DNA of 62,749 nt, counting the filler, from Candidatus Woesearchaeota archaeon (GTDB lineage: Archaea > Nanobdellota > Nanobdellia > Woesearchaeales > GCA-2687795): assembly GCA_030753365.1 (NCBI GenBank). It is 5 parts of 5 records of this genome, joined end to end, with 100 filler letters (N's around TTAATTAATTAA, not from the genome) between each part and the next. Parts side by side here need not be neighbours in the genome. Positions count along the whole stretch, not along the records: positions 38,978 to 51,059 come from JASMCJ010000065.1; 4 more parts are not named here. One strand, 5' to 3'. The number at the start of each line of letters is the position of its first letter. Position 1 is the stretch's first letter. The translations under genes were made by a program, and so were the position numbers. The notes below the pieces were generated by a model. The model searched no databases and had not been told where the DNA came from. It was given only the letters and a program-made list of their open reading frames with translations. Positions 38,019-51,159 of this stretch are shown piece after piece.

Positions 38019-38816
38019 TTAACCTATATAATCAATACCTTCTCCGCCTAATTTGCCTTTCAGTTTCTTAATAGCAGTCTGCTTTGAAACATCACTGATA
38101 TCCTTAGTCCTCTTAAGCAGGTCTGATTCCAACTGGTCAATCTCTTTATCAATCTCATTCATGTTAATCCCTAGTTCAAACCTTTTCTCAAGTATCTTCA
38201 AAATCTCTCTTGCGCCTTTAACTCCCAAGTACATCGGATGCCCATACGTTTCAGCTAAGAACGATATAGCCCCAATCTTCCTCTTATCAGCAAGCCCCAA
38301 TAAAAGTCCTGTCACTCCCACAATAGGGCCAACAACACCATACAGGTTCTCATTAAAGCTACCCAGTTTCTTATACCTCTTAACAATATTTGAGTTATTA
38401 GCAGTAGCATACACCTTAGGTTTCTTAGGAATCTCCCCTAAGCCAATCCCTCCCAGTGTCACGATTTCTTTGCACTTAAACGTTTCAACAATATCCAAGA
38501 TTTTCTCAGAAAAGTCATACGAGCTGACCTCATCAGTAGGCTGCACATCCCCTGTTAACAATAACAAATCGTTCTTAGCCAATTTGACATAATATACCTT
38601 AATAGATGGCAGTTCCACTAAATTTTCCTCATTAACAAACACTGAATGCGGCATAGTATATGAAAAAAACTCATACAGCTCCTTAGCCTCCAGTTTCTCT
38701 ATAATAAAATCCACTGCAACCTTTCCAACATTTCCAATGCCTGGCAACCCTTCTATAAAGATAGGATTCCTCAGAACTGGCTGTTTTTCAAGCTGATTTA
38801 CTTTCCATGAAGTCAT
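38019..38816 (-). CDS. PAC2 family proteasome assembly chaperone
   Basis: IEGLPGIGNVGK, GDVQP, TLGG. Confidence 0.9.
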   Translation of the reverse strand: MTSWKVNQLEKQPVLRNPIFIEGLPGIGNVGKVAVDFIIEKLEAKELYEFFSYTMPHSVFVNEENLVELPSIKVYYVKLAKNDLLLLTGDVQPTDEVSSYDFSEKILDIVETFKCKEIVTLGGIGLGEIPKKPKVYATANNSNIVKRYKKLGSFNENLYGVVGPIVGVTGLLLGLADKRKIGAISFLAETYGHPMYLGVKGAREILKILEKRFELGINMNEIDKEIDQLESDLLKRTKDISDVSKQTAIKKLKGKLGGEGIDYIG

Positions 38817-38977: not shown

Positions 38978-39073
38978 AGCCAAAAGGAGCCTAAAACAGC
39001 CTTAATAGATGCTGCTAAGAGGCTTAAAAAAGTTGCAGATGACCTAGAGAAAGAATTTGCAAAAGCAGTATAA
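38978..39073 (+). CDS. rpoL: C-terminal fragment, probably RNA polymerase subunit L
   Basis: ..EPKTALIDAAKRLKKVADDLEKEF resembles the RpoL C-terminal helix; truncated by the gap. Confidence 0.5.
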   Translation, partial: SQKEPKTALIDAAKRLKKVADDLEKEFAKAV

Positions 39074-39088
39074 GAATCTTGTTTCAAG

Positions 39089-39682
39089 ATGAAACTAACT
39101 CTTGATGATGGAAAATCATTGATTAAGCTTGCAAGGAGTTCTATTTCTGAATTTTTTGATAAAAAAGAAATAAATGTTGATGAGTCAGTAAAAGAAAAGT
39201 ATTCAGAAAAGCAGGGAGTTTTTGTTACGCTTTATATGGATGATGAGCTGAGAGGTTGTATAGGCTTTCCTGAGCCGGTGCTGCCTTTATATCAAGCTGT
39301 TGTTGACGCTGCTAAAAGCGCGGCTTTTTCTGATCCAAGGTTCTTACCTCTAACAAAAGAAGAGTTTAAAGATGTTAGGATTGAGCTTTCAGTGCTCACT
39401 TTGCCTGAATTAGTTGAGGTTAAAGAGCCTGAAGAATATCTTAATATTATAGAAATAGGCAAGGATGGATTGATAATAAGAAACAGTTTTAATTCAGGGT
39501 TATTATTACCTATTGTAGCAGTTGAGTATAAGTGGGATGCTAAGACTTTCTTAGAAAATCTTTGTGGAAAGGCAGGCCTGTCAAATGATGCATGGAGAGA
39601 TTTAAACAATAAGGTTTATAGGTTTCAATCAAGAGTTTTCTCTGAAAAAGAGCCTGAAGGCGAAATTGTAGAGAAAATGTAG
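39089..39682 (+). CDS. AMMECR1-domain protein (AmmeMemoRadiSAM protein A type)
   Basis: GVFVTL..LRGCIG, DPRF, ELSVLT, GLLLP. Confidence 0.93.
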   Translation: MKLTLDDGKSLIKLARSSISEFFDKKEINVDESVKEKYSEKQGVFVTLYMDDELRGCIGFPEPVLPLYQAVVDAAKSAAFSDPRFLPLTKEEFKDVRIELSVLTLPELVEVKEPEEYLNIIEIGKDGLIIRNSFNSGLLLPIVAVEYKWDAKTFLENLCGKAGLSNDAWRDLNNKVYRFQSRVFSEKEPEGEIVEKM

Positions 39683-39761
39683 GTTTTTTCTCTCAAAAAA
39701 TCGTAAAATATATAAGTAAGTTAATTCAAAATAAGTATAAAATATATAAGAGGGGGTATAA

Positions 39762-40022
39762 ATGGGAAAAGTTGTAAATAAGTGTGGAGTAAAAAGAGCA
39801 AAAGGATATCTTTACTTCTTGGACAAAAAAGGCAATGTTGCCAGAGTACAGATGAAAAGAGCAGGGAAAAAGACTAGCAAAAAACAGGAAGTTGTTGCTA
39901 AAACAGGAATAAAAAGAAAGAATGGATTCCTATACTACATCGACAAGAAGGGTGACGTCTGCGAAGCAAAGATGAAGAGAGGCGGCACAAGAAAGAAGAA
40001 AGCTGCTAAGAAGAAGAAATGA
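39762..40022 (+). CDS. Small basic Cc1-like chromatin protein with a tandem domain duplication
   Basis: Two copies of GxKRxxG(Y/F)LY(F/Y)xDKKGxV...MKR; Lys-rich tail. Confidence 0.65.
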   Translation: MGKVVNKCGVKRAKGYLYFLDKKGNVARVQMKRAGKKTSKKQEVVAKTGIKRKNGFLYYIDKKGDVCEAKMKRGGTRKKKAAKKKK

Positions 40023-40122
40023 TAAAACCTTTTTAGGTTATTTTTTTGTTTTTATATTTTTATTTTGGTAGAGGGTCTTATTTGGTTTTTGATAGTCGCA
40101 AAAAAACTATAGACATATCAAT

Positions 40123-40824
40123 CTAATTATCTACAAATCTTAACGGAACACAACTAAAGCTATCTCTTAAGTATACATCCAATCCTTTCTGATAGAAATA
40201 ATCAGCAGTCTGAATTAGTAAATATTCTCCTTTCTTTATATGTTCGGGAGTAAGGTTAGGGTAATATGTATGTCTCTCTTCAATTGGCGCTGTTTTTTCT
40301 TTGTCATGCCTTTTTCTCATTAATCTTATTAATTCATTAGGTTCAAAGAGCCTGAATTCAAGTAAAATCTTTTCTTTAATAGATTTGGTTATTGATAGAT
40401 AGGTTAGGTCTAGTTCTAATTCAGAATAGTTTCTTTCATATATTGGATGATGATGAACAAATACTGGTATCTCTGTTCCATTATGTCTATAGCCTATGTA
40501 AAATAAAAGATGTGTTTCTGCAACTTTATGTTTCCCTTCTAGGAGTTCTTTAACCACAGGATTATCATACCATATCTCCTGGTCTTTTGTAAAGTCCCCT
40601 ATTACTGAGAAGCTTTCTTTTGATTCTAAAGCTGAATCATATCCACGAGCCTTAGCTACTAATGTTGACTTGCCTGTGCACATAAAACCTGTAACTAGCA
40701 GGTTCCTATCAAGAAATTCTGAGGGAAAATCTATGCCATATTCCCTTATCGTAGATGATTCTGGAACAAACCTATATCTTTTGCCATTAGGGAATTCTAT
40801 TTCCTTAAATTGGTTGTCTAACAT
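40123..40824 (-). CDS. Hypothetical protein with a P-loop
   Basis: VTGFMCTGKST Walker A motif. Confidence 0.55.
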   Translation of the reverse strand: MLDNQFKEIEFPNGKRYRFVPESSTIREYGIDFPSEFLDRNLLVTGFMCTGKSTLVAKARGYDSALESKESFSVIGDFTKDQEIWYDNPVVKELLEGKHKVAETHLLFYIGYRHNGTEIPVFVHHHPIYERNYSELELDLTYLSITKSIKEKILLEFRLFEPNELIRLMRKRHDKEKTAPIEERHTYYPNLTPEHIKKGEYLLIQTADYFYQKGLDVYLRDSFSCVPLRFVDN

Positions 40825-40968
40825 TTGATTTGTAACTGTTATTATTAGTTCTTGTAGGCCATTTTAGTTTATTATACTCAATGAAAACCAACTTTGTTTA
40901 TAAAGCTTGTTTAGAATTCTTTAAACAGCATATAATAAACTATAAATACTAATCTTCTCTAACTCACT

Positions 40969-43098
40969 TTGATGAGATTTATTGAGACTAAAAGGCAGAA
41001 ATACCTATTTTTATCAGTAACAGCCCTTGGCATATCTTCAATCATCACACAAATCATTGCAATAAGGGAGTTTCTTATAGTGTTTTATGGCAATGAACTC
41101 ATATTTGGCATCATACTAGCAAACTGGCTCTTCATCACAGGCATAGGTGCTTACCTTGGCAAATATTTTGAAAGAAGAAAGATATCCATGTTAATCTTTC
41201 TGCAGATTATAATTGCTTTTCTGCCTTTCTTTTATCTAATGATTATAAGAAACCTTAGAAACATTTTCTTCCTGCCTGGTGAGATGCTTAGCATTACACA
41301 GACATTCCTTAGCACACTATTTATCCTTCTGCCTTACTGCTTAATATCAGGCTTCCTGTTGACCTTTGTCTGCAGTATCTTCTCAAAAGAGGAGAGCCAT
41401 ACTTCAATAGGTAAAGTTTATTTCATAGATAATATAGGAGACATCTTAGGAGGAATCTTGTTCAGTTTTATCTTCATATATCTGCTCACAGCTTTCCAAA
41501 TGGTTTTCTTTCTTATGGTAATCAACCTTTCAGCAGCTTTTCTGCTGTCCAGGCCAACCAAGAAAGCCTTTATCTTATTTCTTATAATATTGTCTTCTAT
41601 TTTATTTTTTAGCTTTGACTTTGAAAGGATAACAAGGCAACAGCAGTATAAAAACCAGAAGCTGTTATTCTATGGAGACACGCTTTATGGAAACCTTGTT
41701 GTAACAGACACAGCAGGCCAGTTAAACTTCTATGAAAATGGCTTAACATTGTTCACTACAGAGAATACAATATCTAATGAAGAAACAGTGCATTATTCGA
41801 TGTCCAACGCAGAAAATCCTAAGAAAATATTATTAATCTCCGGTGGAGTCTCAGGGACTATAAGTGAAATCCAAAAGTACAGTGTAGAAAATATAGACTA
41901 CCTTGAACTTGACCCTAAAATTATTGAGCTTGGTAGAAAATATACCAATAACATTGGCACTGATGTAAATATTATTAACAAAGATGCAAGGTTATTCATA
42001 AAGCAGACAGATGAAAAATATGATGTTATAATAATTGACCTTCCTAGTCCCAGCACTGTACAGTTCAACAGATTTTATACTTCAGAATTCTTCAATGAAG
42101 CCAAGAGAACTCTAAACAAGGATGGAATCCTCTCATTAAGCTTGGTATCATCAGAGAACTATCTTAACACTGAAACAAGAAAGCTGAACTCAGCTTTATA
42201 CAATACATTAAAGCCATACTTCAAAAATATACTAATAATCCCTGGAGACAAAAACTACTTTATTGCTTCTGATAAAGAGCTAACTTATGACATAGTCAGC
42301 TTGATTAAAAATAAGGAAATCGATACAAAATATGTAAATGAATACTATCTAAAGGGAAAGCTAACCCCTGACAGGATTGATTATATACAAAACTCATTAA
42401 TAAAAGACACAAAGCCCAACGAGGACTTCAAGCCAATAACATATTACTATCACTTATTATACTGGCTAAGGAATTTCAGATTAGACATAGGCCTTTTAGT
42501 AATCATTGTTATCTTCATGTTCCTTTACTTGCTTAGAATAAAGCCAATTCCTTTTGCGCTCTTTACAACAGGATTCTCAGCAGCAGCGCTTGAAGTGGTT
42601 GTTCTTATAGGATTCCAGATACTCTATGGCTATGTTTATTCAAAGCTCTCAATAATCATAACAGCTTTTATGATAGGTCTTGTGCTTGGTTCATACTATA
42701 TGAATAAAAAAATAGAAAACATGGGGAAAAAAGAGTTTGTTAGAATAGAATACTCCTTATTCTTTTGTTCTCTTTTAGTTCCGATTATCTTATTCTTATT
42801 AAGCAGAATCAAGAACAGCTTTTTGGTTACAATATCTTCACACACAATACTGCCACTATTCACAATCATTATAGCAATCCTTGTAGGAATGGAATTCCCC
42901 TTAGCTTCAAAACTGTTCTTTAAAGATAAAGTGAGAGAAACAGCAGCTCTGCTTTATAATGCAGACCTTATTGGCGCATGCCTTGGCGCACTGCTTACTT
43001 CAGCGTTGTTGATACCTTTGATTGGTATATTCAAGGTATGCTTGCTTGTTGGAATATTAAATTTGGTTAGCGGGGTTGTTGTTAAGCTTAAAGCATAA
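40969..43098 (+). CDS. Multi-TM membrane protein fused to a spermidine-synthase-like SAM-binding domain
   Basis: TM blocks flank LLISGG..LELDP..DAR.F..YDVIIIDLP. Confidence 0.85.
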   Translation: MMRFIETKRQKYLFLSVTALGISSIITQIIAIREFLIVFYGNELIFGIILANWLFITGIGAYLGKYFERRKISMLIFLQIIIAFLPFFYLMIIRNLRNIFFLPGEMLSITQTFLSTLFILLPYCLISGFLLTFVCSIFSKEESHTSIGKVYFIDNIGDILGGILFSFIFIYLLTAFQMVFFLMVINLSAAFLLSRPTKKAFILFLIILSSILFFSFDFERITRQQQYKNQKLLFYGDTLYGNLVVTDTAGQLNFYENGLTLFTTENTISNEETVHYSMSNAENPKKILLISGGVSGTISEIQKYSVENIDYLELDPKIIELGRKYTNNIGTDVNIINKDARLFIKQTDEKYDVIIIDLPSPSTVQFNRFYTSEFFNEAKRTLNKDGILSLSLVSSENYLNTETRKLNSALYNTLKPYFKNILIIPGDKNYFIASDKELTYDIVSLIKNKEIDTKYVNEYYLKGKLTPDRIDYIQNSLIKDTKPNEDFKPITYYYHLLYWLRNFRLDIGLLVIIVIFMFLYLLRIKPIPFALFTTGFSAAALEVVVLIGFQILYGYVYSKLSIIITAFMIGLVLGSYYMNKKIENMGKKEFVRIEYSLFFCSLLVPIILFLLSRIKNSFLVTISSHTILPLFTIIIAILVGMEFPLASKLFFKDKVRETAALLYNADLIGACLGALLTSALLIPLIGIFKVCLLVGILNLVSGVVVKLKA

Positions 43099-43211
43099 CG
43101 AGAAAATAAAAATTTTCTCTAATTTAGTAAAGTTTTCATTTCATTCAAACTTTATAAATAACCAAAACATTTATATCTTACATTAACTAAACTATTTCTT
43201 GGGGTGATTAT

Positions 43212-43370
43212 ATGATTAGTATGCCTGAATTATTAGTTATTCTTGTAATAGTATTGGTTTTATTTGGACCTAAAAAGCTCCCAGAACTGGCAAGGTCAGT
43301 TGGTGAAAGTGTGAATGCTTACAGGGAAGGCATGGCTGGTAAAAGGAAGCCTAAGAAATTACAGGGTTAA
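43212..43370 (+). CDS. tatA: Twin-arginine translocase subunit TatA (not in the ORF track)
   Basis: MISMPELLVILVIVLVLFGPKKLPELARSVG; GGGGTGA RBS upstream. Confidence 0.92.
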   Translation: MISMPELLVILVIVLVLFGPKKLPELARSVGESVNAYREGMAGKRKPKKLQG

Positions 43371-43414
43371 GTGTTTAGTGGAGCTAATAAAAGAGGTGAT
43401 AGCGAGGTTAATAT

Positions 43415-44101
43415 ATGAAGCTACACCTATATGAACATCTGGATGAACTAAGAAAACGATTCCTTATCATCATCATCTTTCTATTACTCTTCTTTGTCAT
43501 TGGCTTTTCTCTATCCAACTATTTCATTAAAATAATAATAAATGATTTGATACTTATAGAGAATGTTAAGATCATTGGGTTAACACCGGTTGAATACATC
43601 CTTACACAGATAAGAATTGGGTTTATAATATCATTAATTATAACAATACCTATTATAATCTATCAGGCTTTAGTATTCATAATCCCTGGCTTAAGAAGAA
43701 GAGAAAGAGATGCAATAAAGTTTATACTTCCAGCATTCTTTATGTTGTTTGTGTTAGGAATCTCTTTTGCATATTTTATATTCCTTCCTATTGCAATATA
43801 TTTCTTAGGCAACCTTTCTACAGGTGTTGTGGAAAATGTCTGGAGCATCAAAGAGTTTATCAACTTTGTAATATTAAGCTGCCTTGGCTCTGCTTTAGTC
43901 TTTCAGCTGCCCCTCTTGCTTGTTCTTCTAAACAAGCTAAATATTATAAGCTTAAAACAGCTTAAAAAATATAGAAGCCATGTTTATGTGCTTATTTTCC
44001 TAATGTCTGCCTTGATTACTCCGCCTGATATAATTACTATGGTTATCATTGCTCTGCCTTTAATAGTATTATATGAAGTCAGCCTTTTGGCGATAAGATA
44101 A
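43415..44101 (+). CDS. tatC: Twin-arginine translocase subunit TatC
   Basis: HLDELRKR, PGL...E, FQLP, ITPPD, PL..LYE. Confidence 0.95.
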   Translation: MKLHLYEHLDELRKRFLIIIIFLLLFFVIGFSLSNYFIKIIINDLILIENVKIIGLTPVEYILTQIRIGFIISLIITIPIIIYQALVFIIPGLRRRERDAIKFILPAFFMLFVLGISFAYFIFLPIAIYFLGNLSTGVVENVWSIKEFINFVILSCLGSALVFQLPLLLVLLNKLNIISLKQLKKYRSHVYVLIFLMSALITPPDIITMVIIALPLIVLYEVSLLAIR

Positions 44102-44103
44102 TC

Positions 44104-45309
44104 CTAAACATTCCAGACCCCAGCTATCTTATAACCACAGAACTTACAGTTTCCATTACTTAGATTCTTTTCTGTAATTAAATAACCTTTCCTTCCGATT
44201 ACTATCCTGCCGCATCTGGGGCAAAAAGTGTTCTCAGCCTCAGTGCCTGGAACATTCCCAATATAGACGTACTTCAAGCCTTCATCCATTGCAATCTTTC
44301 TTGCATTGTTCAAAACATTGATTGGTGTTGGCTGGATATGCGTAAGCTTATACATTGGACTGAATCTTGATAAATGCAATGGATAATCATCAAGCCCATT
44401 CTTATGAAGCCATTGGCACATCTCCCTTATCATGTCCAGGTTATCAGTCCAGGTTGGCACTATAAGGTTAGTCATCTCAAACCAAAGTTTCTCTTCTTTT
44501 GCTATTTTTAGAGTGTTAAGGATAGGCTCTAAGGTTGCGCCGTTTAGTTTGTTATAGATTTTCTCACTAAAGCCTTTAAGGTCAATGTTAGCAGCATCTA
44601 TCACCTTACACAAATCCCTGAAAGGCTTTTCATTAATATAGCCGGCGGTAACCATTACATTCTTAAGCCCTTGCTGTTTAGCTATCTTTGATGTGTCATA
44701 CATATACTCATAGAAGATTACAGGTTCTGAATAAGTATAAGCAATTGATTTGCAATTCTTCTGTATTGCAGCGTTTACAACTGTTTCTGGCATTAGGTCA
44801 TAGTTGTTAGTTTCTTCTGGCTGGAACTGTGATATCTGCCAGTTCTGGCAGTTAAGGCATCTTAGGTTGCAGCCTGCTGTTGCAATAGAAAAGATTGAAG
44901 ATGAGGGCAGGAAATGAAACAATGGCTTTTTTTCAATAGGGTCAACATGCACAGAACATGGGTTGCCATAGGCTAGAGAATAGAGCTTGCCGTCCTTATT
45001 TACTCTTGTCCTGCATATTCCCCTGTCATCAGGTGCTAAACTACATTTATGAGGGCATAGTTCGCATTGGACGTTTTCATTTATTTGCTTATAGTACAAT
45101 GCTTCCTTAGACCATTTCCATAAAGTATCAGGAGCAGAATTTGGAAAAATATCAGGCAATGAACCTGAGCTTCTGCTGAACAAGTGGTTATAGCCATAAG
45201 CAGAAGTTGCCAACCCGCCTATTCCTATAAAGCTGTACTTAAGGAACTCTCTTCTTGATATCTTCTTCTTTAGAAGCTTATTTACAGGATTATTCTCTTC
45301 TTCCCCCAT
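44104..45309 (-). CDS. AmmeMemoRadiSAM-system radical SAM enzyme with a Tat signal peptide
   Basis: ISRREFLK plus h-region; CELCPHKC, VDPIEKKPLFHFLP, GCNLRCLNCQNW, YVYIGNVPG..TFCPRC. Confidence 0.92.
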   Translation of the reverse strand: MGEEENNPVNKLLKKKISRREFLKYSFIGIGGLATSAYGYNHLFSRSSGSLPDIFPNSAPDTLWKWSKEALYYKQINENVQCELCPHKCSLAPDDRGICRTRVNKDGKLYSLAYGNPCSVHVDPIEKKPLFHFLPSSSIFSIATAGCNLRCLNCQNWQISQFQPEETNNYDLMPETVVNAAIQKNCKSIAYTYSEPVIFYEYMYDTSKIAKQQGLKNVMVTAGYINEKPFRDLCKVIDAANIDLKGFSEKIYNKLNGATLEPILNTLKIAKEEKLWFEMTNLIVPTWTDNLDMIREMCQWLHKNGLDDYPLHLSRFSPMYKLTHIQPTPINVLNNARKIAMDEGLKYVYIGNVPGTEAENTFCPRCGRIVIGRKGYLITEKNLSNGNCKFCGYKIAGVWNV

Positions 45310-45380
45310 ACAGAAAGTTATGATTGTTTATTTATTTAAATTGTTGTAAATTCCTCGTTGCTTTTCGATGGTTGGGATTT

Positions 45381-46091
45381 TTATCTTATCTTTGATTCAG
45401 CCTTCAACGCCAAATCTCCAACACATCCTATTGGACAAAAATAATTGCACCATAACCTTGGGATAAAGAATGCTAAAATAAAAATAACTAGAGAAACTAA
45501 AGCAGTTATTAAATAAAACTCATAAGTTCCTATGAACAATCCAAAATAAAAGTCAGGCTTGAATATTAAGCTCAATACTACAATAGCTGTAAACAACAAA
45601 ACAAGATATCTAAGATTCTTCAACCATCCTGGCAACTTTATCCTCTTCTTTGATACTTTGCTTTGGTAATCCTGCAATGTTCCAAAAGGGCAGAGCTTAA
45701 AGCACCAGAACCTTCTATCCAAATTCAGCACTAAAAATGATGGGACAATAAAAGGAACCAGCTCACCCCAAGGGCACTTCTTTGGGCATGCCCTGCAGAG
45801 GATATAAGGCACTTTGAAATAACATTTGAACAAAGGCAAAACAACGGCAGGAAGGAATATTAATCCATAGATAATCTTTAACACATTGTTCTTCACATTA
45901 AACTTCTTAAACAGCTTCAGAAAGATTATCACAAAAGCAGCAATCAATGAAAAATAAACAATAAAATAATAATCATTGCTCCAGAAAAAGCTTAGATATT
46001 TCCTAATGTTTTCTTGAAGAGCATAATAACCAAGTATAGTGATTAAGATAAGGCTTACAGTAAGGCTGAGCAAGATCTTTGGTTTTTTCAT
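45381..46091 (-). CDS. Membrane 4Fe-4S binding protein (NapH/MauN-like)
   Basis: CRACP..CPWG, WCFKLCPFG and WCNYFCPIG motifs; TM helices. Confidence 0.85.
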   Translation of the reverse strand: MKKPKILLSLTVSLILITILGYYALQENIRKYLSFFWSNDYYFIVYFSLIAAFVIIFLKLFKKFNVKNNVLKIIYGLIFLPAVVLPLFKCYFKVPYILCRACPKKCPWGELVPFIVPSFLVLNLDRRFWCFKLCPFGTLQDYQSKVSKKRIKLPGWLKNLRYLVLLFTAIVVLSLIFKPDFYFGLFIGTYEFYLITALVSLVIFILAFFIPRLWCNYFCPIGCVGDLALKAESKIR

Positions 46092-46173
46092 TAGTTTAAT
46101 GTGGGTAGATGCTTTTTATATATATTTTGTTTCTAATCTTCGAAAACCCAAAGATTTCCAAAAAGTTTATATA

Positions 46174-46205
46174 GTAAAGCTTACTTTACGTATAGTTAGC
46201 TTTAC
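46174..46205. promoter_or_regulatory. Inverted-repeat operator upstream of the XRE regulator
   Basis: GTAAAGCTTAC-N10-GTTAGCTTTAC just downstream of AAAAGTTTATATA. Confidence 0.65.
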
Positions 46206-46212
46206 ATGTGCA

Positions 46213-46410
46213 ATGGCATTAACAAAAAACAACCTGAGAAACTTCAGGAAAAAAGCAGGATTAAGCCAGGAGAAACTGGCTGATAAGGTTAGTGTCACAA
46301 GGCAGACAATAATATCAATAGAGAATGGAAAATATGTTCCTTCATTAGAACTGGCATTGAAGTTTGCTAAACAATTCAAATGTAAAGTTGAAAACCTGTT
46401 TGGAGTTTAA
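46213..46410 (+). CDS. XRE-family HTH regulator
   Basis: LSQEKLADKVSVTRQTIISIENGKYVPSLELA. Confidence 0.92.
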   Translation: MALTKNNLRNFRKKAGLSQEKLADKVSVTRQTIISIENGKYVPSLELALKFAKQFKCKVENLFGV

Positions 46411-46411
46411 C

Positions 46412-46621
46412 ATGGACAAACACATAAAAAAAGCATTGAAATTAATTGGCTTAGCAATAGTCTTATTCATAGTGTTTGTTATACTGCATAATCTTGTTTC
46501 TGCTTTATTTAATGCTGAAGAGCCTGTGTTCTTTATCTTGGCTTTGATAACAGGATTGATAGGAATTCCTGCTTCAATTATTTATTTAGTTGTTGCAATT
46601 GTCAAGAACCGTTCGTCATAG
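46412..46621 (+). CDS. Small two-TM membrane protein
   Basis: ILHNLVSALFNAEEPVFFILA; two hydrophobic helices. Confidence 0.65.
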   Translation: MDKHIKKALKLIGLAIVLFIVFVILHNLVSALFNAEEPVFFILALITGLIGIPASIIYLVVAIVKNRSS

Positions 46622-46765
46622 ATAGGTGGTATGCAAGGCAAAGCCTTGTAAGCTATACCATGTTTATGGCGGTTCTTGAGCATGCTCAGAAATATAACAC
46701 CTTCCAAAAATGGATTGTGGACTTCGTCCACTGGTTATGAAACTAGTGGTATATTTCTGACACAT
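46602..46765 (+). ncRNA. Candidate structured RNA or folded-DNA element (long hairpin plus multi-branched stem)
   Basis: Stems TCAAGAACCG/CGGTTCTTGA, CAAGGC-AAA-GCCTTG, TCAGAAATATA/TATATTTCTGA, GTGGAC-TTC-GTCCAC. Confidence 0.45.
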
Positions 46766-46789
46766 TAAGAAATATAAAGGTGATAAAAA

Positions 46790-47224
46790 ATGATAGGAAA
46801 ACCAGAATGGTTCACGTACAGAATATTTGGCTGGGGATTAAGGCCAAGGACATGGCAAGGCTGGGTTTATGTAGTAGTCTTTGTAGCTTTATTTATGGGG
46901 ACAGCTTCAATGCCAATACCTGAAACCACTAAGATGAGTATAATGTGGGTTTTGATGGGCATATTGATAATTGATGCAGTCCATATAATGACATCTTTGC
47001 ATAAGTTCCATGATGAAAGGCAGAACCTGCATCATTTAATCATTGAAAGGAATGTATCCCTTGCAGCAGTGCTTGCTTTGGTTGGAGTTGCTTTATTGCA
47101 GACATACCAAAACAGAGGAATAACAGTCAGTGGACTGCCATTTGACTGGTCTATTGCTGTGATTCTAGGAGTGATGGTATTAACAAAAGGAATCTCAACA
47201 TTTTATGTGAATAAGAAGATGTGA
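46790..47224 (+). CDS. Membrane protein
   Basis: WF..R.FGWG..P.TWQGW motif; four TM helices; DER motif. Confidence 0.7.
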   Translation: MIGKPEWFTYRIFGWGLRPRTWQGWVYVVVFVALFMGTASMPIPETTKMSIMWVLMGILIIDAVHIMTSLHKFHDERQNLHHLIIERNVSLAAVLALVGVALLQTYQNRGITVSGLPFDWSIAVILGVMVLTKGISTFYVNKKM

Positions 47225-47300
47225 GTTTAACCAGTATACTCCAAAAGAATAAGTTTATTATATCCCTTATATATCTCTACCCTTAATGGGGTGAGATATT

Positions 47301-48656
47301 ATGGAAATCTTCAAAGCTTATGATATAAGAGGAGTATATCCAGATGATTTGGATGAGGATAAAGCCTATAAAATAGGCAGAGCTTTTATTAAGTTATTAA
47401 AAAAAGAAGATTCTAATAAAAGCAAACTTACAGTTGTGGTAAGCAGAGACATGCGTTTATCATCACCTTCATTATCAAAAGAGGTTATCAAAGGCATAAC
47501 AGATGAAGGGGCAGATGTTGTTGACATTGGGCTTTCTTCAACGCCAACATTCTATTATGCAGTTGCAAAGTATGGTTATGATGGCGGCCTTCAGGTGTCT
47601 GCATCGCATAATCCTAAAGAATACAATGGGATAAAAGTAGTAAGAGCGAAAGCTTTTCCTGTTGGTTTAGAGAATGGCTTGGATAAGATAAAAGAAATCT
47701 GTTTAAAAGATAATTTTTCAGAGCCAAAAGAAAAAGGCAATGTATCAAAAAAAGAAGATGTTCTTCCGGAGCTTGTGCAATACTCTTTGAAATTCTATGA
47801 CTTTCCTATAAAGCCATTAAAAGTTGTTGCAGACACAGCAAACTCAATGGGCGCTCTTGACATTGAAGAGCTTTTCAAAAACATTCCCTGTGAGCTTGTT
47901 AAGATGAACTTTGAGCTTGACGGAACTTTCCCAGCGCATCAGGCGGATCCTTTTCAGGAAAAGAATGTAAAAGACCTGAAGAAAAAAGTTGTTGAAGAGG
48001 AAGCAGATCTTGGCATAGCAACTGATGGTGATGGGGACAGAATATTCTTTGTTGATGACAAAGGAACCTTAATTGAACCGGCCATAATAAGAGGCATTAT
48101 ATCTAGAGTTGTGCTAGGACATCATCCTAACTCTAAAATCTGCTATGACATAAGGCCTGGCATGATAACAAAAGATATGATAGTTGAGAATGGAGGAACT
48201 CCTATAGTAACAAAAGTGGGCCATTCCCTAATAAAAAAGAAGGCTATTGAAGAAGGGGCAGAATTTGCAGGCGAATCTTCCGGTCACTTTTTTGTTAAAA
48301 CAGAGTATGGCTTTTTTGAAACTCCTTTGATAATTGCTTTAATTATTATGGATGAGATATCAAAGAATGGAAGCATATCAAAAATAGTAAAGCCGCTTAG
48401 AAAATATTTTCATTCAGGTGAAATCAATTCAAAAGTAGATAATAAAGAAGGAATTATGGAAAAACTTAAAGAAAAATACAGTGATGGAAAAGTTTCTACA
48501 CTTGACGGTGTTTCAGTTGAATATGATGATTGGTGGTTCAATGTAAGGCCATCTAACACAGAATCATTGTTAAGGCTTAATCTTGAAGCAAGAACAAAGA
48601 AAAGGATGGAAGAGAAGAAGAAAGAGGTGCTTGAAATCATTAAAAGCAATGGGTGA
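47301..48656 (+). CDS. Phosphomannomutase/phosphoglucomutase
   Basis: FKAYDIRG, SASHNP, DGDGDR, GESSGH, RPSNTE. Confidence 0.95.
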   Translation: MEIFKAYDIRGVYPDDLDEDKAYKIGRAFIKLLKKEDSNKSKLTVVVSRDMRLSSPSLSKEVIKGITDEGADVVDIGLSSTPTFYYAVAKYGYDGGLQVSASHNPKEYNGIKVVRAKAFPVGLENGLDKIKEICLKDNFSEPKEKGNVSKKEDVLPELVQYSLKFYDFPIKPLKVVADTANSMGALDIEELFKNIPCELVKMNFELDGTFPAHQADPFQEKNVKDLKKKVVEEEADLGIATDGDGDRIFFVDDKGTLIEPAIIRGIISRVVLGHHPNSKICYDIRPGMITKDMIVENGGTPIVTKVGHSLIKKKAIEEGAEFAGESSGHFFVKTEYGFFETPLIIALIIMDEISKNGSISKIVKPLRKYFHSGEINSKVDNKEGIMEKLKEKYSDGKVSTLDGVSVEYDDWWFNVRPSNTESLLRLNLEARTKKRMEEKKKEVLEIIKSNG

Positions 48657-48662
48657 TAACTA

Positions 48663-49487
48663 ATGAAAATATTCATAGACACAGCAAAGTTGGAAGAAAT
48701 TAAGGAAGCATATTCTTTAGGCATTCTAGATGGTGTAACAACCAATCCAAGCCTTATTAAGAAGATTGTTGATGAGCTTAAGGCTAAAGGGGAAAAGGTT
48801 GACATGGAGTCTTATATCAAAGAGATATTAGAGTTGGCAAAAGGAACGCCTGTAAGCCTTGAAGTGATTGGAACAAGCCATGAAGATATGGTAAAAGAAG
48901 GCAAAAGATTGTATGAGAAGTTTAATCCTGTTGCAGGCAATGTTTATATCAAGATACCAGTTAATCCTGCGCTTGATGATAAATCCGGAGCAGCATTTGA
49001 TGGCATCAAGGCAGTAAAAGAACTATCTGATGCTGGCATACCAGTAAACTGCACTTTAATCTTCACACCTGAGCAGGCTTTGTTAGCTGCAAAAGCTGGA
49101 GCAAAATTTGTAAGCCCTTTTGCAGGCAGAGTTGATGATTTCATAAGAACTAATAATAATATTTCTTTTGAGAAAACTGATTATTTCCCTGCTGAAGGCA
49201 CGAAGAAAGAAGATAAGTTTATGGAAGACAATGGTGTTGTCTCAGGTGTTGACTTGATAGCGCAGATATCTGAGCTTTTTAATGTGCAGAACATAACAGA
49301 AACAGAAGTTCTGGCAGCAAGCATAAGGAGTGCAAGGCAGGCAAGAGAAGCTGCTTTAGTGGGAGCAGATATTGCAACATTACCTTTTGGTGTAATCAAA
49401 GAATTGTTAATGCATTCCAAGACAATAGAAGGCATGAACAAGTTTGTGGGAGATGTTGTAGATGAATATTCTGAATTAGTTAAGTAA
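48663..49487 (+). CDS. tal: Transaldolase
   Basis: DTA, GVTTNPS, IKIP, NCTLIF, SPFAGR, AASIR. Confidence 0.93.
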   Translation: MKIFIDTAKLEEIKEAYSLGILDGVTTNPSLIKKIVDELKAKGEKVDMESYIKEILELAKGTPVSLEVIGTSHEDMVKEGKRLYEKFNPVAGNVYIKIPVNPALDDKSGAAFDGIKAVKELSDAGIPVNCTLIFTPEQALLAAKAGAKFVSPFAGRVDDFIRTNNNISFEKTDYFPAEGTKKEDKFMEDNGVVSGVDLIAQISELFNVQNITETEVLAASIRSARQAREAALVGADIATLPFGVIKELLMHSKTIEGMNKFVGDVVDEYSELVK

Positions 49488-49564
49488 TTTAAACCTTTTT
49501 TTTCTTTATTTTCCTTTTTTTCTCCGTTAAATATATAACTAAAAGCTCCATTTCTTAATATATT

Positions 49565-50719
49565 ATGATATATGACTATATAATCATCCATTATGATGAA
49601 ATAGGCCTTAAAGGAAAGAATAGGGGCAGCTTTGAAGAGCTCTTGATTAGTAACATTGAGATAAAATTAAAGAGTTTAATGAAGTCCTGCTTTCGTGAGT
49701 CTGGGCATATTACTATTGAAATTGATGGAAAAGCAAACATATCAAAAATAAAGGAAGCTCTCTCGCAAATACCTGGAATTGCTTATTTTTCATTAGCAAA
49801 AAGGGTTGAACTAAACCTTGATTCATTGAAGAAAGAAGCTATAAATTTCTTAGAAGATAAAGAGTATGATTCGTTCAAAGTAAACGCTGTAAGGCATGAC
49901 AAAGGTTTTGAATTAAATTCAATGGAACTTAACTCTAAGTTAGGAGAAGTGATAATCAAAGCTCTTAACAAAAAAGTAAAGATGAAATCCCCTGATATAA
50001 TGCTAAAGATTGAACTATCAAAAAAGTCTGCTTACATCTCTAATGAAGATATCAAAGGCGTTGGAGGTCTTCCAACAAATCCTCAGCAGAAGGTTGTTGC
50101 ATTGTTATCAGGTGGGTTTGACAGCCCTGTTGCAGCTTATCTAATGATGAAAAGAGGTTGTGAAGTAATCCTTGTTCATTTCCATAACAAGAACCAGGCA
50201 TCCTCATCTGTGGAAAGCAAAATAACAAAGCTGGCAGAGCAGTTATCAAAGTTTCAGGTTAAGACAAAATTGTATATTGTTCCTTTTGAAAGTCTTCAGA
50301 AAGAAATCATTATGAAGGTTAACTCAAAGCTAAGAATGCTGGTTTACAGAAGGTTTATGTTGAAAATAGCTTCTGAAGTAGCAGGAATGAATAAAGCAAA
50401 ATTTTTGATAGTTGGAGACAGCCTTTCACAAGTAGCATCGCAAACCTTTGAAAACCTTGAAGCAACATATACTGGTTTGGATAAGCATGTTCTTTCTCCT
50501 CTAATAGGGCTTGATAAAAGAGAAATCATAGAAATTTCTAAAAGAATTGGCACATATGAAATATCAGCAATGCCTTATGGAGACTGTTGCAGCTATTTTT
50601 TAGCTAAACACCCTACATTGAAAGCTGATGTAAAATTATTAGAGAAGAATGAAGCTTTGTTTGACGTTGATAAGCTGGTTGAAGATGTTTTGAGTAAATC
50701 TAGGGTTATAGGCTTTTAG
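49565..50719 (+). CDS. thiI: tRNA 4-thiouridine synthase ThiI
   Basis: EIGLKGKNR, THUMP domain, LSGGFDS, SLSQVASQT, DCC. Confidence 0.95.
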   Translation: MIYDYIIIHYDEIGLKGKNRGSFEELLISNIEIKLKSLMKSCFRESGHITIEIDGKANISKIKEALSQIPGIAYFSLAKRVELNLDSLKKEAINFLEDKEYDSFKVNAVRHDKGFELNSMELNSKLGEVIIKALNKKVKMKSPDIMLKIELSKKSAYISNEDIKGVGGLPTNPQQKVVALLSGGFDSPVAAYLMMKRGCEVILVHFHNKNQASSSVESKITKLAEQLSKFQVKTKLYIVPFESLQKEIIMKVNSKLRMLVYRRFMLKIASEVAGMNKAKFLIVGDSLSQVASQTFENLEATYTGLDKHVLSPLIGLDKREIIEISKRIGTYEISAMPYGDCCSYFLAKHPTLKADVKLLEKNEALFDVDKLVEDVLSKSRVIGF

Positions 50720-50749
50720 TAAGGATTTATGTTTAAAGAGATTTAATCT

Positions 50750-51028
50750 TCAGCGGTTATGATTCCGCCCAATATATCCTATTAATTCATCAACAGTTTC
50801 AAAACTAAAAATGTTATCATCTGGAATACTTATTCCTGACTCTTCTTCAATATAATATATAATTCCATATATATCAAGACTATCAATACCTAAATCAGTT
50901 ACTAGGTTACTGTCAGGACTTATCTCTTCTTGTTCAATGTCCTTCATTTCAGAAATTACTTTTCGTACTATTTCATAAAGTGGACTTTCCTCAGAACTCA
51001 TTTCTTCTTGTTTATTCTCGTCGTTCAT
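50750..51028 (-). CDS. acpP: Acyl carrier protein
   Basis: DLGIDSLD phosphopantetheine site; IEEE.GI.IPD; TV.ELI.YI; acidic. Confidence 0.85.
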   Translation of the reverse strand: MNDENKQEEMSSEESPLYEIVRKVISEMKDIEQEEISPDSNLVTDLGIDSLDIYGIIYYIEEESGISIPDDNIFSFETVDELIGYIGRNHNR

Positions 51029-51159
51029 TTTTATGAGTATTTTTGAGGTTATATATAAANNNNNNNNNNNNNNNNNNNNNNNNNNNNNNNNNNNNNNNNN
51101 NNNTTAATTAATTAANNNNNNNNNNNNNNNNNNNNNNNNNNNNNNNNNNNNNNNNNNNN

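What the first reader, a model, noticed from the sequence alone, without database searches (positions are those of the whole stretch)
39089..46091. Tat-exported AmmeMemoRadiSAM enzyme with adjacent tatA/tatC, membrane Fe-S partner and membrane SAM-domain protein
Seen in sequence, on one contig: AMMECR1, a membrane/spermidine-synthase-like fusion, tatA (missed by the ORF track) and tatC. Converging on them are a radical SAM with the twin-arginine signal ISRREFLK and a NapH-like membrane Fe-S protein. The SAM-binding domain has variant motifs (SGGVSG, DLPSP) compared with true aminopropyltransferases. Established: AmmeMemoRadiSAM chemistry is unknown and usually assumed to be cytoplasmic; Tat exports folded, cofactor-loaded proteins. 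Inference: an extracytoplasmic radical-SAM pathway with a dedicated translocase, an electron donor and possibly SAM handling. No MEMO1 partner is visible in this window.
Basis: partly seen in the sequence, partly recalled or inferred. Interest (0 to 1): 0.75.

Follow-up and report, generated by a model that had tools for sequence, protein, structure and literature searches.

The report
Exported radical-SAM module with private translocase
A small marine archaeon carries a gene cassette for a radical-SAM enzyme with an export signal, a protein-export machine, a transporter and a membrane iron-sulfur protein, which together likely run, outside the membrane, a kind of chemistry normally thought to stay inside the cell.

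Summary
The genes are as described, on one contig. Five of them (40969-46091) form a conserved module: Tat-signal radical SAM (TIGR04337), tatA, tatC, a membrane Fe-S protein, and a 14-helix protein modelled as a complete MFS transporter with a predicted outward-facing SAM-type cap. The adjacent AMMECR1 does not belong; it is the signal-less cytoplasmic paralog. The usual partner is a signal-bearing Memo-AMMECR1 fusion (48 of 80 related loci). Here it is missing from the locus, and the genome's only such fusion lacks the conserved cysteine. Best evidence for real export: in 251 genomes of this order, 21 of 23 with TatC carry the transporter and 20 of 23 the Tat-type enzyme, 225 have neither TatC nor transporter, and the enzyme is the only canonical Tat substrate I found in this genome. 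The cap has lost aminopropyltransferase residues, and all 24 carriers encode SAM synthetase, so SAM export is likely. Export, transport and substrate are untested. No paper found describes it, but one key paper (Burroughs 2019) could not be read.

The parts
40969..43098 (+). 14-helix membrane protein: complete 12-helix MFS fold (two 6-helix repeats) with a SpeE-like cap (about residues 218-502) inserted between helices 7 and 8, predicted outside; predicted SAM carrier
   Evidence: AlphaFold pLDDT 90; VIA Z 29.2, 345 aligned, rmsd 3.6 to SotB and Z 28.3 to T. thermophilus aminopropyltransferase; halves are repeats, hhalign 98%; positive-inside counts; motif counts
43212..43370 (+). tatA, 52 aa
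   Evidence: PF02416 E 7.6e-17, TIGR01411 over cut-off
43415..44101 (+). tatC, 228 aa, bacterial-type minimal TatAC
   Evidence: PF00902, TIGR00945 over cut-off, TatC-Arch below; EHLDELR and F..PGL...E motifs present
44101..44104 (.). Junction where the congener has a 1.45 kb signal-bearing Memo-AMMECR1 fusion gene; here tatC and the radical SAM gene abut
   Evidence: L008:6880-8328; junction bridged in 4 of 4 runs
44104..45309 (-). AmmeMemoRadiSam radical SAM enzyme, 401 aa, with N-terminal twin-arginine signal, CxxxCxxC (C147, C151, C154) and two further cysteine groups at its ends
   Evidence: TIGR04337 377.5 bits; invariant columns in 56 homologs; closest solved relative by sequence is PFL-activating enzyme, E 1.2e-15
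45238..45258 (-). Twin-arginine motif S-R-R-E-F-L-K (residues 18-24), followed by 21 uncharged residues of low hydrophobicity
   Evidence: RR in 20 of 22 archaeal homologs
45381..46091 (-). Membrane Fe-S protein (Fer4_5), 236 aa: four cysteines (C90, C99, C102, C106) in a predicted outer loop and two CxxxCP motifs predicted inside; predicted electron wire
   Evidence: PF12801; six cysteines in 15 of 15 and two in 14 of 15 sequences, the 15th truncated; sidedness inferred by eye from hydropathy and basic loops
39089..39682 (+). Stand-alone signal-less AMMECR1 (TIGR00296 type); cytoplasmic paralog, not part of the module
   Evidence: preceded by the last gene of contig C45 through a 141-nt overlap, which I recognise from memory as rpoL

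Best explanation
The locus encodes a radical SAM enzyme with a twin-arginine signal, a TatA/TatC pair, a membrane Fe-S protein and a predicted MFS transporter with a SAM-type cap, and together they likely run radical-SAM chemistry on the outer face of the membrane. Shown: the genes, their motifs, their conservation as a unit, and the TatC co-occurrence. Inferred steps with my odds: (1) the enzyme is loaded with its [4Fe-4S] cluster inside and exported folded by the module's own TatAC, probably staying anchored by its signal (0.85); (2) the MFS protein exports SAM made by MetK, its outer cap holds SAM for the enzyme, and 5'-deoxyadenosine or methionine may return by the same route (0.5); (3) the Fe-S protein carries electrons from its inner CxxxCP pair to an outer four-cysteine site and on to the enzyme (0.6); (4) the enzyme acts as an activase on a Sec-exported Memo-AMMECR1 partner, whose conserved cysteine then modifies an envelope component such as a lipid head group or surface protein (0.25). 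In this genome step 4 is atypical, because the only exported fusion found lacks that cysteine.
For: Conservation: among the 80 best GTDB loci, 67 have the MFS-cap gene, 61 a Memo and/or AMMECR1 gene, 48 a full fusion. Signals: 78 of 81 enzyme ORFs carry RR (30), KR (37) or RK (11) before x-F/A/L-hydrophobic; one has KK and two are truncated. Fusions carry N-terminal hydrophobic segments by inspection, and 8 stand-alone AMMECR1 halves carry their own. Translocase: tatA or tatC is in 11 of 22 archaeal loci, 3 of 3 Clostridia loci and 0 of 55 other bacterial loci. In 251 genomes of the order TatC is in 23; 21 of these have the MFS-cap protein and 20 the Tat-type enzyme; 225 have neither TatC nor the MFS-cap protein. 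Two module genomes without TatC have tatA at a contig end. The two TatCs without the module form their own branch (SH-aLRT 99). The enzyme is the only canonical S/T-RR-x-FL substrate among 2231 ORFs of 60 aa or more in G000. Transporter: full MFS fold, cap predicted outside. Cap: ribose-binding E/D and adenine-binding D are kept in 56 of 56; the GGGDG Asp position is mostly I/V/L (46 of 56); the catalytic Asp is kept in 16 of 56 (residue roles from passages of PMC6514230 and PMC3725402). G000 has MetK and no SpeD was found; MetK is in 24 of 24 carriers against 165 of 227 others. Electron slot: Fer4_5 (6 of 80) or a small two-histidine membrane protein (10 of 80), never both; 7 Bacteroidales transporters carry a similar two-histidine domain fused at the N-terminus. 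All five genes are under purifying selection against the congener (dN 0.08-0.17, dS 0.9-1.7).
Against: No export, transport, binding or activity was measured. The signal's hydrophobic stretch is weak (mean 0.5), and 48 of 81 homologs have KR or RK, not RR. The cognate Memo-AMMECR1 gene is missing from this locus; the fusion on C8 is only 41% identical to the congener's (enzyme 86%, transporter 77%), is not its sister in the tree, and has Ser for the AMMECR1 Cys and Gln for a Memo His. Most of the 80 loci show no electron-donor gene by my searches. G003 and G187 carry module genes with neither tatA nor tatC found (83% and 86% complete), G095 has tatA beside a fusion with no TatC found, and 8 genomes have the fusion without the Tat-type enzyme. 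The window's own cap keeps the catalytic Asp (D357). The cytochrome-b hits for the two-histidine domain are all below cut-off. Genomes are related, so the p-values overstate. The 80 loci were chosen by likeness to the query.
Confidence: 0.58

Rival explanations
1. Same exported module, but the cap is an active SAM-dependent transferase (methyl or aminocarboxypropyl) working outside on the product of the radical step, and the MFS part moves the substrate rather than only SAM.
For: The window's motif SGGVSGT has a hydrophobic residue and a Thr at the two positions where D103I and V106T turn spermidine synthase into putrescine N-methyltransferase (PMC3725402 passages; counts). D357 is kept here. 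H275, E271, N367 and R368 are nearly invariant.
Against: The catalytic Asp position is N, A or another residue in 40 of 56 homologs, and the Tyr-His/Gln pair before the conserved Glu is lost. SAM would still have to be delivered outside.
Confidence: 0.2
2. A scavenging system: the outer enzymes convert an environmental or host-derived compound, the cap captures an adenosine-containing product, and the MFS part imports it.
For: The cap keeps the adenosine-binding residues but not the aminopropyl ones. Nucleoside transporters are among the MFS matches (ENT1, Z 25.6). Carriers in this order have small genomes (0.8-2.3 Mb).
Against: All 24 carriers encode MetK. The module is also in Bacteroidales and Desulfobacteraceae MAGs. 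The MFS matches are tied across unrelated substrates, so they say nothing about direction. The radical enzyme would still need an outside SAM source.
Confidence: 0.1
3. The enzyme is not translocated: the twin-arginine segment only tethers it to the inner face, and TatAC serves other substrates or is a hitch-hiker.
For: Weakly hydrophobic h-region; KR/RK variants in most bacterial homologs; SAM and reductant are cytoplasmic (established knowledge).
Against: No other canonical Tat substrate was found in G000; TatC tracks the module in the order; the partner fusion has export signals and the cap is predicted outside; a signal-less paralog already exists on C50.
Confidence: 0.07
4. In this genome the module is a decaying remnant: the partner gene was deleted and the rest no longer works.
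For: Fusion gene absent from the locus; the only exported fusion found lacks the AMMECR1 Cys and a Memo His and has a long branch.
Against: All five genes are intact with low dN/dS, like neighbouring tal and thiI; 13 of 16 variant positions in the enzyme gene among four runs are synonymous. The assembly is 94.5% complete in 78 contigs, so a cognate fusion may be unassembled.
Confidence: 0.05

Closest known systems
AmmeMemoRadiSam system (TIGR04335 AMMECR1-like A, TIGR04336 Memo-like B, TIGR04337 radical SAM)
   Same: The enzyme passes TIGR04337; relatives sit beside Memo-AMMECR1 fusions. The AMMECR1-radical SAM-dioxygenase neighbourhood, the fusions and the conserved RGChG cysteine are described in PMC2034487 (passages read), which proposed an RNA base modification.
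   Different: All parts carry export signals or face outward by prediction; an MFS-cap protein, an electron-carrier slot and, in archaea and Clostridia, tatAC are added. The genome keeps a separate signal-less set. An RNA substrate is hard to reconcile with an outside location.
Fused MFS/spermidine synthase (NF037959) and membrane SpeE PRK03612
   Same: N-terminal membrane domain followed by a SpeE-like domain; passes the NF037959 cut-off.
   Different: Has a second 6-helix repeat that completes an MFS fold, lacks the dcSAM-selecting Asp, and no SpeD was found in the genome; far below SpeE equivalog cut-offs.
Substrate-dedicated minimal TatAC translocases of Bacillota (for example the B. subtilis phoD-tatAdCd operon; recalled, not read)
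   Same: Two-gene translocase encoded beside its substrate; the best named TatC hits outside DPANN archaea are Bacillota.
   Different: Occurs in a DPANN order where 228 of 251 genomes showed no TatC over the cut-off, and the substrate is a radical SAM enzyme.
Glycyl-radical enzyme activases (PFL-AE)
   Same: Only solved relatives found by sequence (E 1.2e-15); basis for the activase step.
   Different: Extra cysteine groups at both ends, an export signal, and no glycyl-radical enzyme partner in the loci.
NapH/MauN membrane ferredoxin-type proteins
   Same: Two CxxxCP motifs in a polytopic membrane protein.
   Different: 21.8 bits against a cut-off of 213; ends without the C-terminal ferredoxin domain (NapH feature recalled); has four invariant cysteines in a predicted outer loop.

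Membership tests
AmmeMemoRadiSam system | Radical SAM enzyme over the TIGR04337 cut-off with CxxxCxxC | tested here: met
   377.5 bits against 220; C147, C151, C154 invariant in 56 of 56
AmmeMemoRadiSam system | Memo and AMMECR1 partner genes in the same cluster | tested here: not met
   No Memo in the locus; adjacent AMMECR1 is a signal-less paralog. Met in 61 of 80 related loci
AmmeMemoRadiSam system | Partner with intact RGC[IV]G cysteine in the matching compartment | tested here: not met
   The C8 fusion reads RGSIG; assembly 94.5% complete, so another copy is not excluded
Tat substrate | S/T-R-R-x-F-L-K near the N-terminus followed by an uncharged stretch | tested here: met
   SRREFLK at 18-24, 21 uncharged residues, mean hydropathy 0.5; own pattern scan, not SignalP or TatFind
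Tat substrate | Tat-dependent translocation | not testable with these tools
   Only genomic co-occurrence
Minimal TatAC translocase | TatA and TatC over family cut-offs with signal-binding motifs | tested here: met
   (motif roles recalled)
Aminopropyltransferase (SpeE) | Acidic residue of GGG[D/E]G that selects dcSAM | tested here: not met
   V294 here; I 22, V 14, L 10 of 56
Aminopropyltransferase (SpeE) | Catalytic Asp that deprotonates the amine | tested here: inconclusive
   D357 here, but D in only 16 of 56 homologs
Aminopropyltransferase (SpeE) | Source of dcSAM (SpeD) in the genome | tested here: not met
   PF02675 not found in G000, 94.5% complete
Major facilitator superfamily | Two 6-helix repeats forming the 12-helix fold | tested here: met
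   VIA Z 29.2, 345 aligned, rmsd 3.6; repeat, hhalign 98%; on a predicted model. No MFS Pfam hit
Major facilitator superfamily | Solute transport | not testable with these tools
   none
NapH/MauN | TIGR02163 cut-off and C-terminal ferredoxin domain | tested here: not met
   21.8 against 213; no cysteine group after the second CxxxCP is conserved

The most novel reading that the evidence does not exclude
A self-contained machine for radical-SAM catalysis outside the cytoplasm: a private Tat translocase that is the main reason these DPANN archaea have Tat at all, a bacterial/archaeal SAM exporter built from an MFS core and a dead spermidine-synthase cap, and interchangeable trans-membrane electron wires, feeding an activase that puts a radical on an exported Memo-AMMECR1 protein.
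Probability: 0.35. Interest if true: 0.88.

Novelty: new variant of a known kind. Interest (0 to 1): 0.68.

Why it matters
Radical SAM enzymes need SAM and a low-potential electron and are treated as cytoplasmic (own knowledge). A tiny archaeal genome that keeps a whole translocase for one such enzyme is strong genetic evidence that the enzyme really leaves the cytoplasm. The module also names testable candidates for how SAM and electrons would cross the membrane. It constrains the open question of what Memo and AMMECR1 proteins, both with disease-linked human relatives, do: an outside location argues against an RNA substrate for this branch, and the five-part set can be reconstituted.

Tried and rejected
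Rejected: adjacent AMMECR1 as module member; the C8 fusion as the relocated ortholog (41% identity, separate branch); spermidine synthase activity; assembly artefact at the junction; the 86-aa and 233-aa ORFs as parts (the first matched 1 of 80 loci, the second none). Foldseek on the whole model returned only SpeE-type rows in the list shown, and on the N-half only weak rows, mostly MFS, none at E 0.001; VIA resolved the fold. Complex prediction of enzyme with cap was not available, so no binding claim is made. Whether the C8 Cys-to-Ser change holds in independent samples stayed unchecked. No RNA holder was listed, which says nothing on expression. The sigma-70 promoter and terminator scan was at chance level and does not cover archaeal promoters. 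No full-length homolog of the transporter on plasmids (0 of 159 matching records cover 80%). No cultured carrier was named among the best 120 hits of two protein searches or the 80 loci. The fusion tree is the quick tree, the careful one did not finish; the TatC backbone is weakly supported (41), so no donor is claimed. Literature: ten searches listed no paper on an exported form; one search was swamped by the word 'amrs'. Burroughs et al. 2019 JBC (PMC6664185) is not held and may discuss it; its supplements were not seen.
Full report
Observation. The window is five contigs joined by N linkers; the finding lies on one, 38978-51059 = G000:C65. All six genes are present with the stated motifs. 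The genome is 0.9 Mb and 94.5% complete. Its closest named relative is a Woesearchaeota MAG at 86% enzyme identity, and the DNA is held by 20 runs from 15 studies, nearly all labelled seawater, marine or vent (six may be its source).

Limits of the module. DNA similarity to the congener's locus L008 covers about 40934-46045 and not AMMECR1. AMMECR1 has no signal, scores best as the TIGR00296/PRK00801 type, and follows, through a 141-nt contig overlap, a gene I recognise from memory as rpoL. The genome holds a full signal-less set: this AMMECR1, a second radical SAM on C50 and a Memo at the end of C50. In a tree of 105 enzyme cores with the signals cut off, the 10 true signal-less enzymes form one side of a branch (support 92), apart from the window's enzyme; three other 'no signal' rows are truncated ORFs. 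So the module is 40969-46091.

Conservation. Of 561 related stretches the tool kept the best 80: DPANN and other archaea, Bacteroidota, Desulfobacterota, Clostridia and others. By BLASTP at E 1e-4, 67 of 80 carry the membrane protein, 61 a Memo and/or AMMECR1 gene, 48 a full fusion, 12 tatC; many loci are cut by contig ends. Of 81 enzyme ORFs, 30 have RR, 37 KR, 11 RK, 1 KK and 2 are truncated; 20 of 22 archaeal ones have RR. The fusions have N-terminal hydrophobic segments by inspection, and 8 stand-alone AMMECR1 halves have their own.

The translocase is dedicated. tatA or tatC lies in 11 of 22 archaeal loci, 3 of 3 Clostridia loci and 0 of 55 other bacterial loci. In 251 genomes of the order, 23 have TatC over the cut-off. 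24 have the membrane protein at E below 1e-35; I dropped 15 genomes with weaker, partial matches. 23 have the Tat-type enzyme: 21 aligning from residue 14 or earlier and two fragments assigned by identity and context; 38 weaker matches were not listed. Overlaps: TatC with membrane protein 21 of 23, with enzyme 20 of 23, and 225 genomes have neither TatC nor the membrane protein. Two of these genomes (G130, G206) are unpublished; without them the first overlap is 19 of 21. G023 and G207 lack TatC but have tatA at a contig end; G003 and G187 showed neither. The two TatCs without the module sit in other contexts and form their own branch. The Clostridia TatCs group with named Bacillota ones, which suggests a separate recruitment (moderate support). 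In G000 the enzyme was the only canonical substrate among 2231 ORFs; two looser matches are K-R or R-K motifs before strongly hydrophobic stretches. Kin are not independent, so I rely on the counts and not the p-values.

The membrane protein. The model (pLDDT 90, 54 sequences) has 7 helices, a soluble domain, then 7 helices. Helices 1-6 and 9-14 are repeats and match whole MFS transporters (SotB and VMAT2 Z 29.2, NorA 26.5); the soluble domain matches aminopropyltransferases (Z 28.3). Basic residues alternate as expected for N-terminus inside, which puts the soluble cap outside. In 56 sequences the ribose-binding E/D and adenine-binding D are invariant, the dcSAM-selecting Asp position is I, V or L in 46, and the catalytic Asp survives in 16. 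Residue roles come from passages of PMC6514230 and PMC3725402; the latter shows that D103I plus V106T shift the pocket to SAM, and the window has V and T at these positions. No SpeD was found in G000 and MetK is present; MetK is in 24 of 24 carriers and 165 of 227 others. I read this as a SAM carrier with a SAM-binding cap; an active transferase is the main rival.

The electron slot. The Fe-S protein has eight conserved cysteines: four in a loop after helix 3 and two CxxxCP motifs next to basic loops, which I place outside and inside by inspection. Other loci have instead a two-histidine membrane protein of about 80 residues (10 of 80, against 6 of 80 for Fer4_5, never both), seven Bacteroidales fuse a similar domain to the transporter, and Clostridia loci have a DUF362 gene with a twin-arginine signal. 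The cytochrome-b hits are below cut-off. Most loci show no such gene.

What is odd here. The congener has the fusion gene between enzyme and tatC; here they abut, and contigs in 4 of 4 runs bridge the junction. The genome's one signal-bearing fusion (C8, lipoprotein-like signal) is 41% identical to the congener's, lies on a long branch elsewhere in the quick tree, and has Ser for the AMMECR1 Cys and Gln for a Memo His; none of the other 29 proteins checked showed RGSIG (25 have Cys, one is divergent, three gave no motif). Yet all five module genes are under purifying selection. Either the enzyme works here without the cysteine, or the true partner is unassembled.

Mechanism. Tat export of the cluster-loaded enzyme (0.85), SAM supply by the MFS-cap protein (0.5), electron supply by the Fe-S protein (0.6), and activase-type action on Memo-AMMECR1 to modify an envelope component (0.25). 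The last step rests on PFL-activating enzyme being the only solved relative and on the radical-to-cysteine idea in PMC2034487 (passages). None is tested.

Literature and novelty. Read as passages: PMC2034487, PMC7159879, PMC7694686, PMC10936187, PMC3725402, PMC6514230. Other papers were seen only as search listings. Ten searches listed no description of an exported form or of Tat in Woesearchaeota tied to it. Burroughs et al. 2019 was not available and could contain it. The scan's own notes report the exported module in at least nine other genomes and the cysteine-free fusion in this one; a word search found no note holding all the words on the Woesearchaeota TatC link. Verdict: a real, widespread, apparently undescribed variant of a known but function-less system; this locus adds the translocase co-occurrence as evidence of export. 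Interest 0.68.

Noticed in passing
L001:925-2397 (G000:C8:35406-36878, minus): Lipoprotein-signal Memo-AMMECR1 fusion with Ser for the AMMECR1 cysteine and Gln for a Memo histidine, among redox and metal-handling genes.
   Followed up: partly
window 40123-40824 (minus): 233-aa ORF with a GFMCTGKST P-loop; no Pfam or NCBIfam hit; Atlas neighbours are kinase-like P-loop clusters. Not in any of the 80 loci.
   Followed up: partly
window 39762-40022: 86-aa very lysine-rich protein with an internal repeat (GYLYFLDKKG / GFLYYIDKKG), no family hit; a homolog lies near the module in L011.
   Followed up: no
L128, L129, L137, L142, L143, L144, L154: Seven genomes of the order have a Memo-AMMECR1 fusion with an N-terminal hydrophobic segment but no Tat-type enzyme, transporter or TatC found; G095 keeps a tatA beside it. 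Possible decay or a separate role.
   Followed up: partly
L061, L072, L079: Clostridia loci place tatC, the enzyme, the transporter and (seen in L061, L079) a Tat-signal DUF362 gene inside a sulfur cluster (ThiF-like, cysteine desulfurase, cysteine synthase, IscR, NifU, CysE; names recognised from memory except DUF362), with no Memo-AMMECR1 in the locus.
   Followed up: no
L157:12263-13429 (G195): metK lies about 2.2 kb from the transporter gene in this one genome.
   Followed up: no
L119:3155-3379 (G219): A module-free tatC sits directly after a 74-aa protein with a TRKDFIK Tat-like signal and large surface-type genes.
   Followed up: no
window 46201-47224: HTH_3 regulator followed by two small membrane proteins, divergent from the Fe-S gene; not shared with the congener's locus.
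   Followed up: no
window 38019-38816: PAC2 proteasome-chaperone gene on the previous contig; its closeness to AMMECR1 comes only from the contig join.
   Followed up: yes
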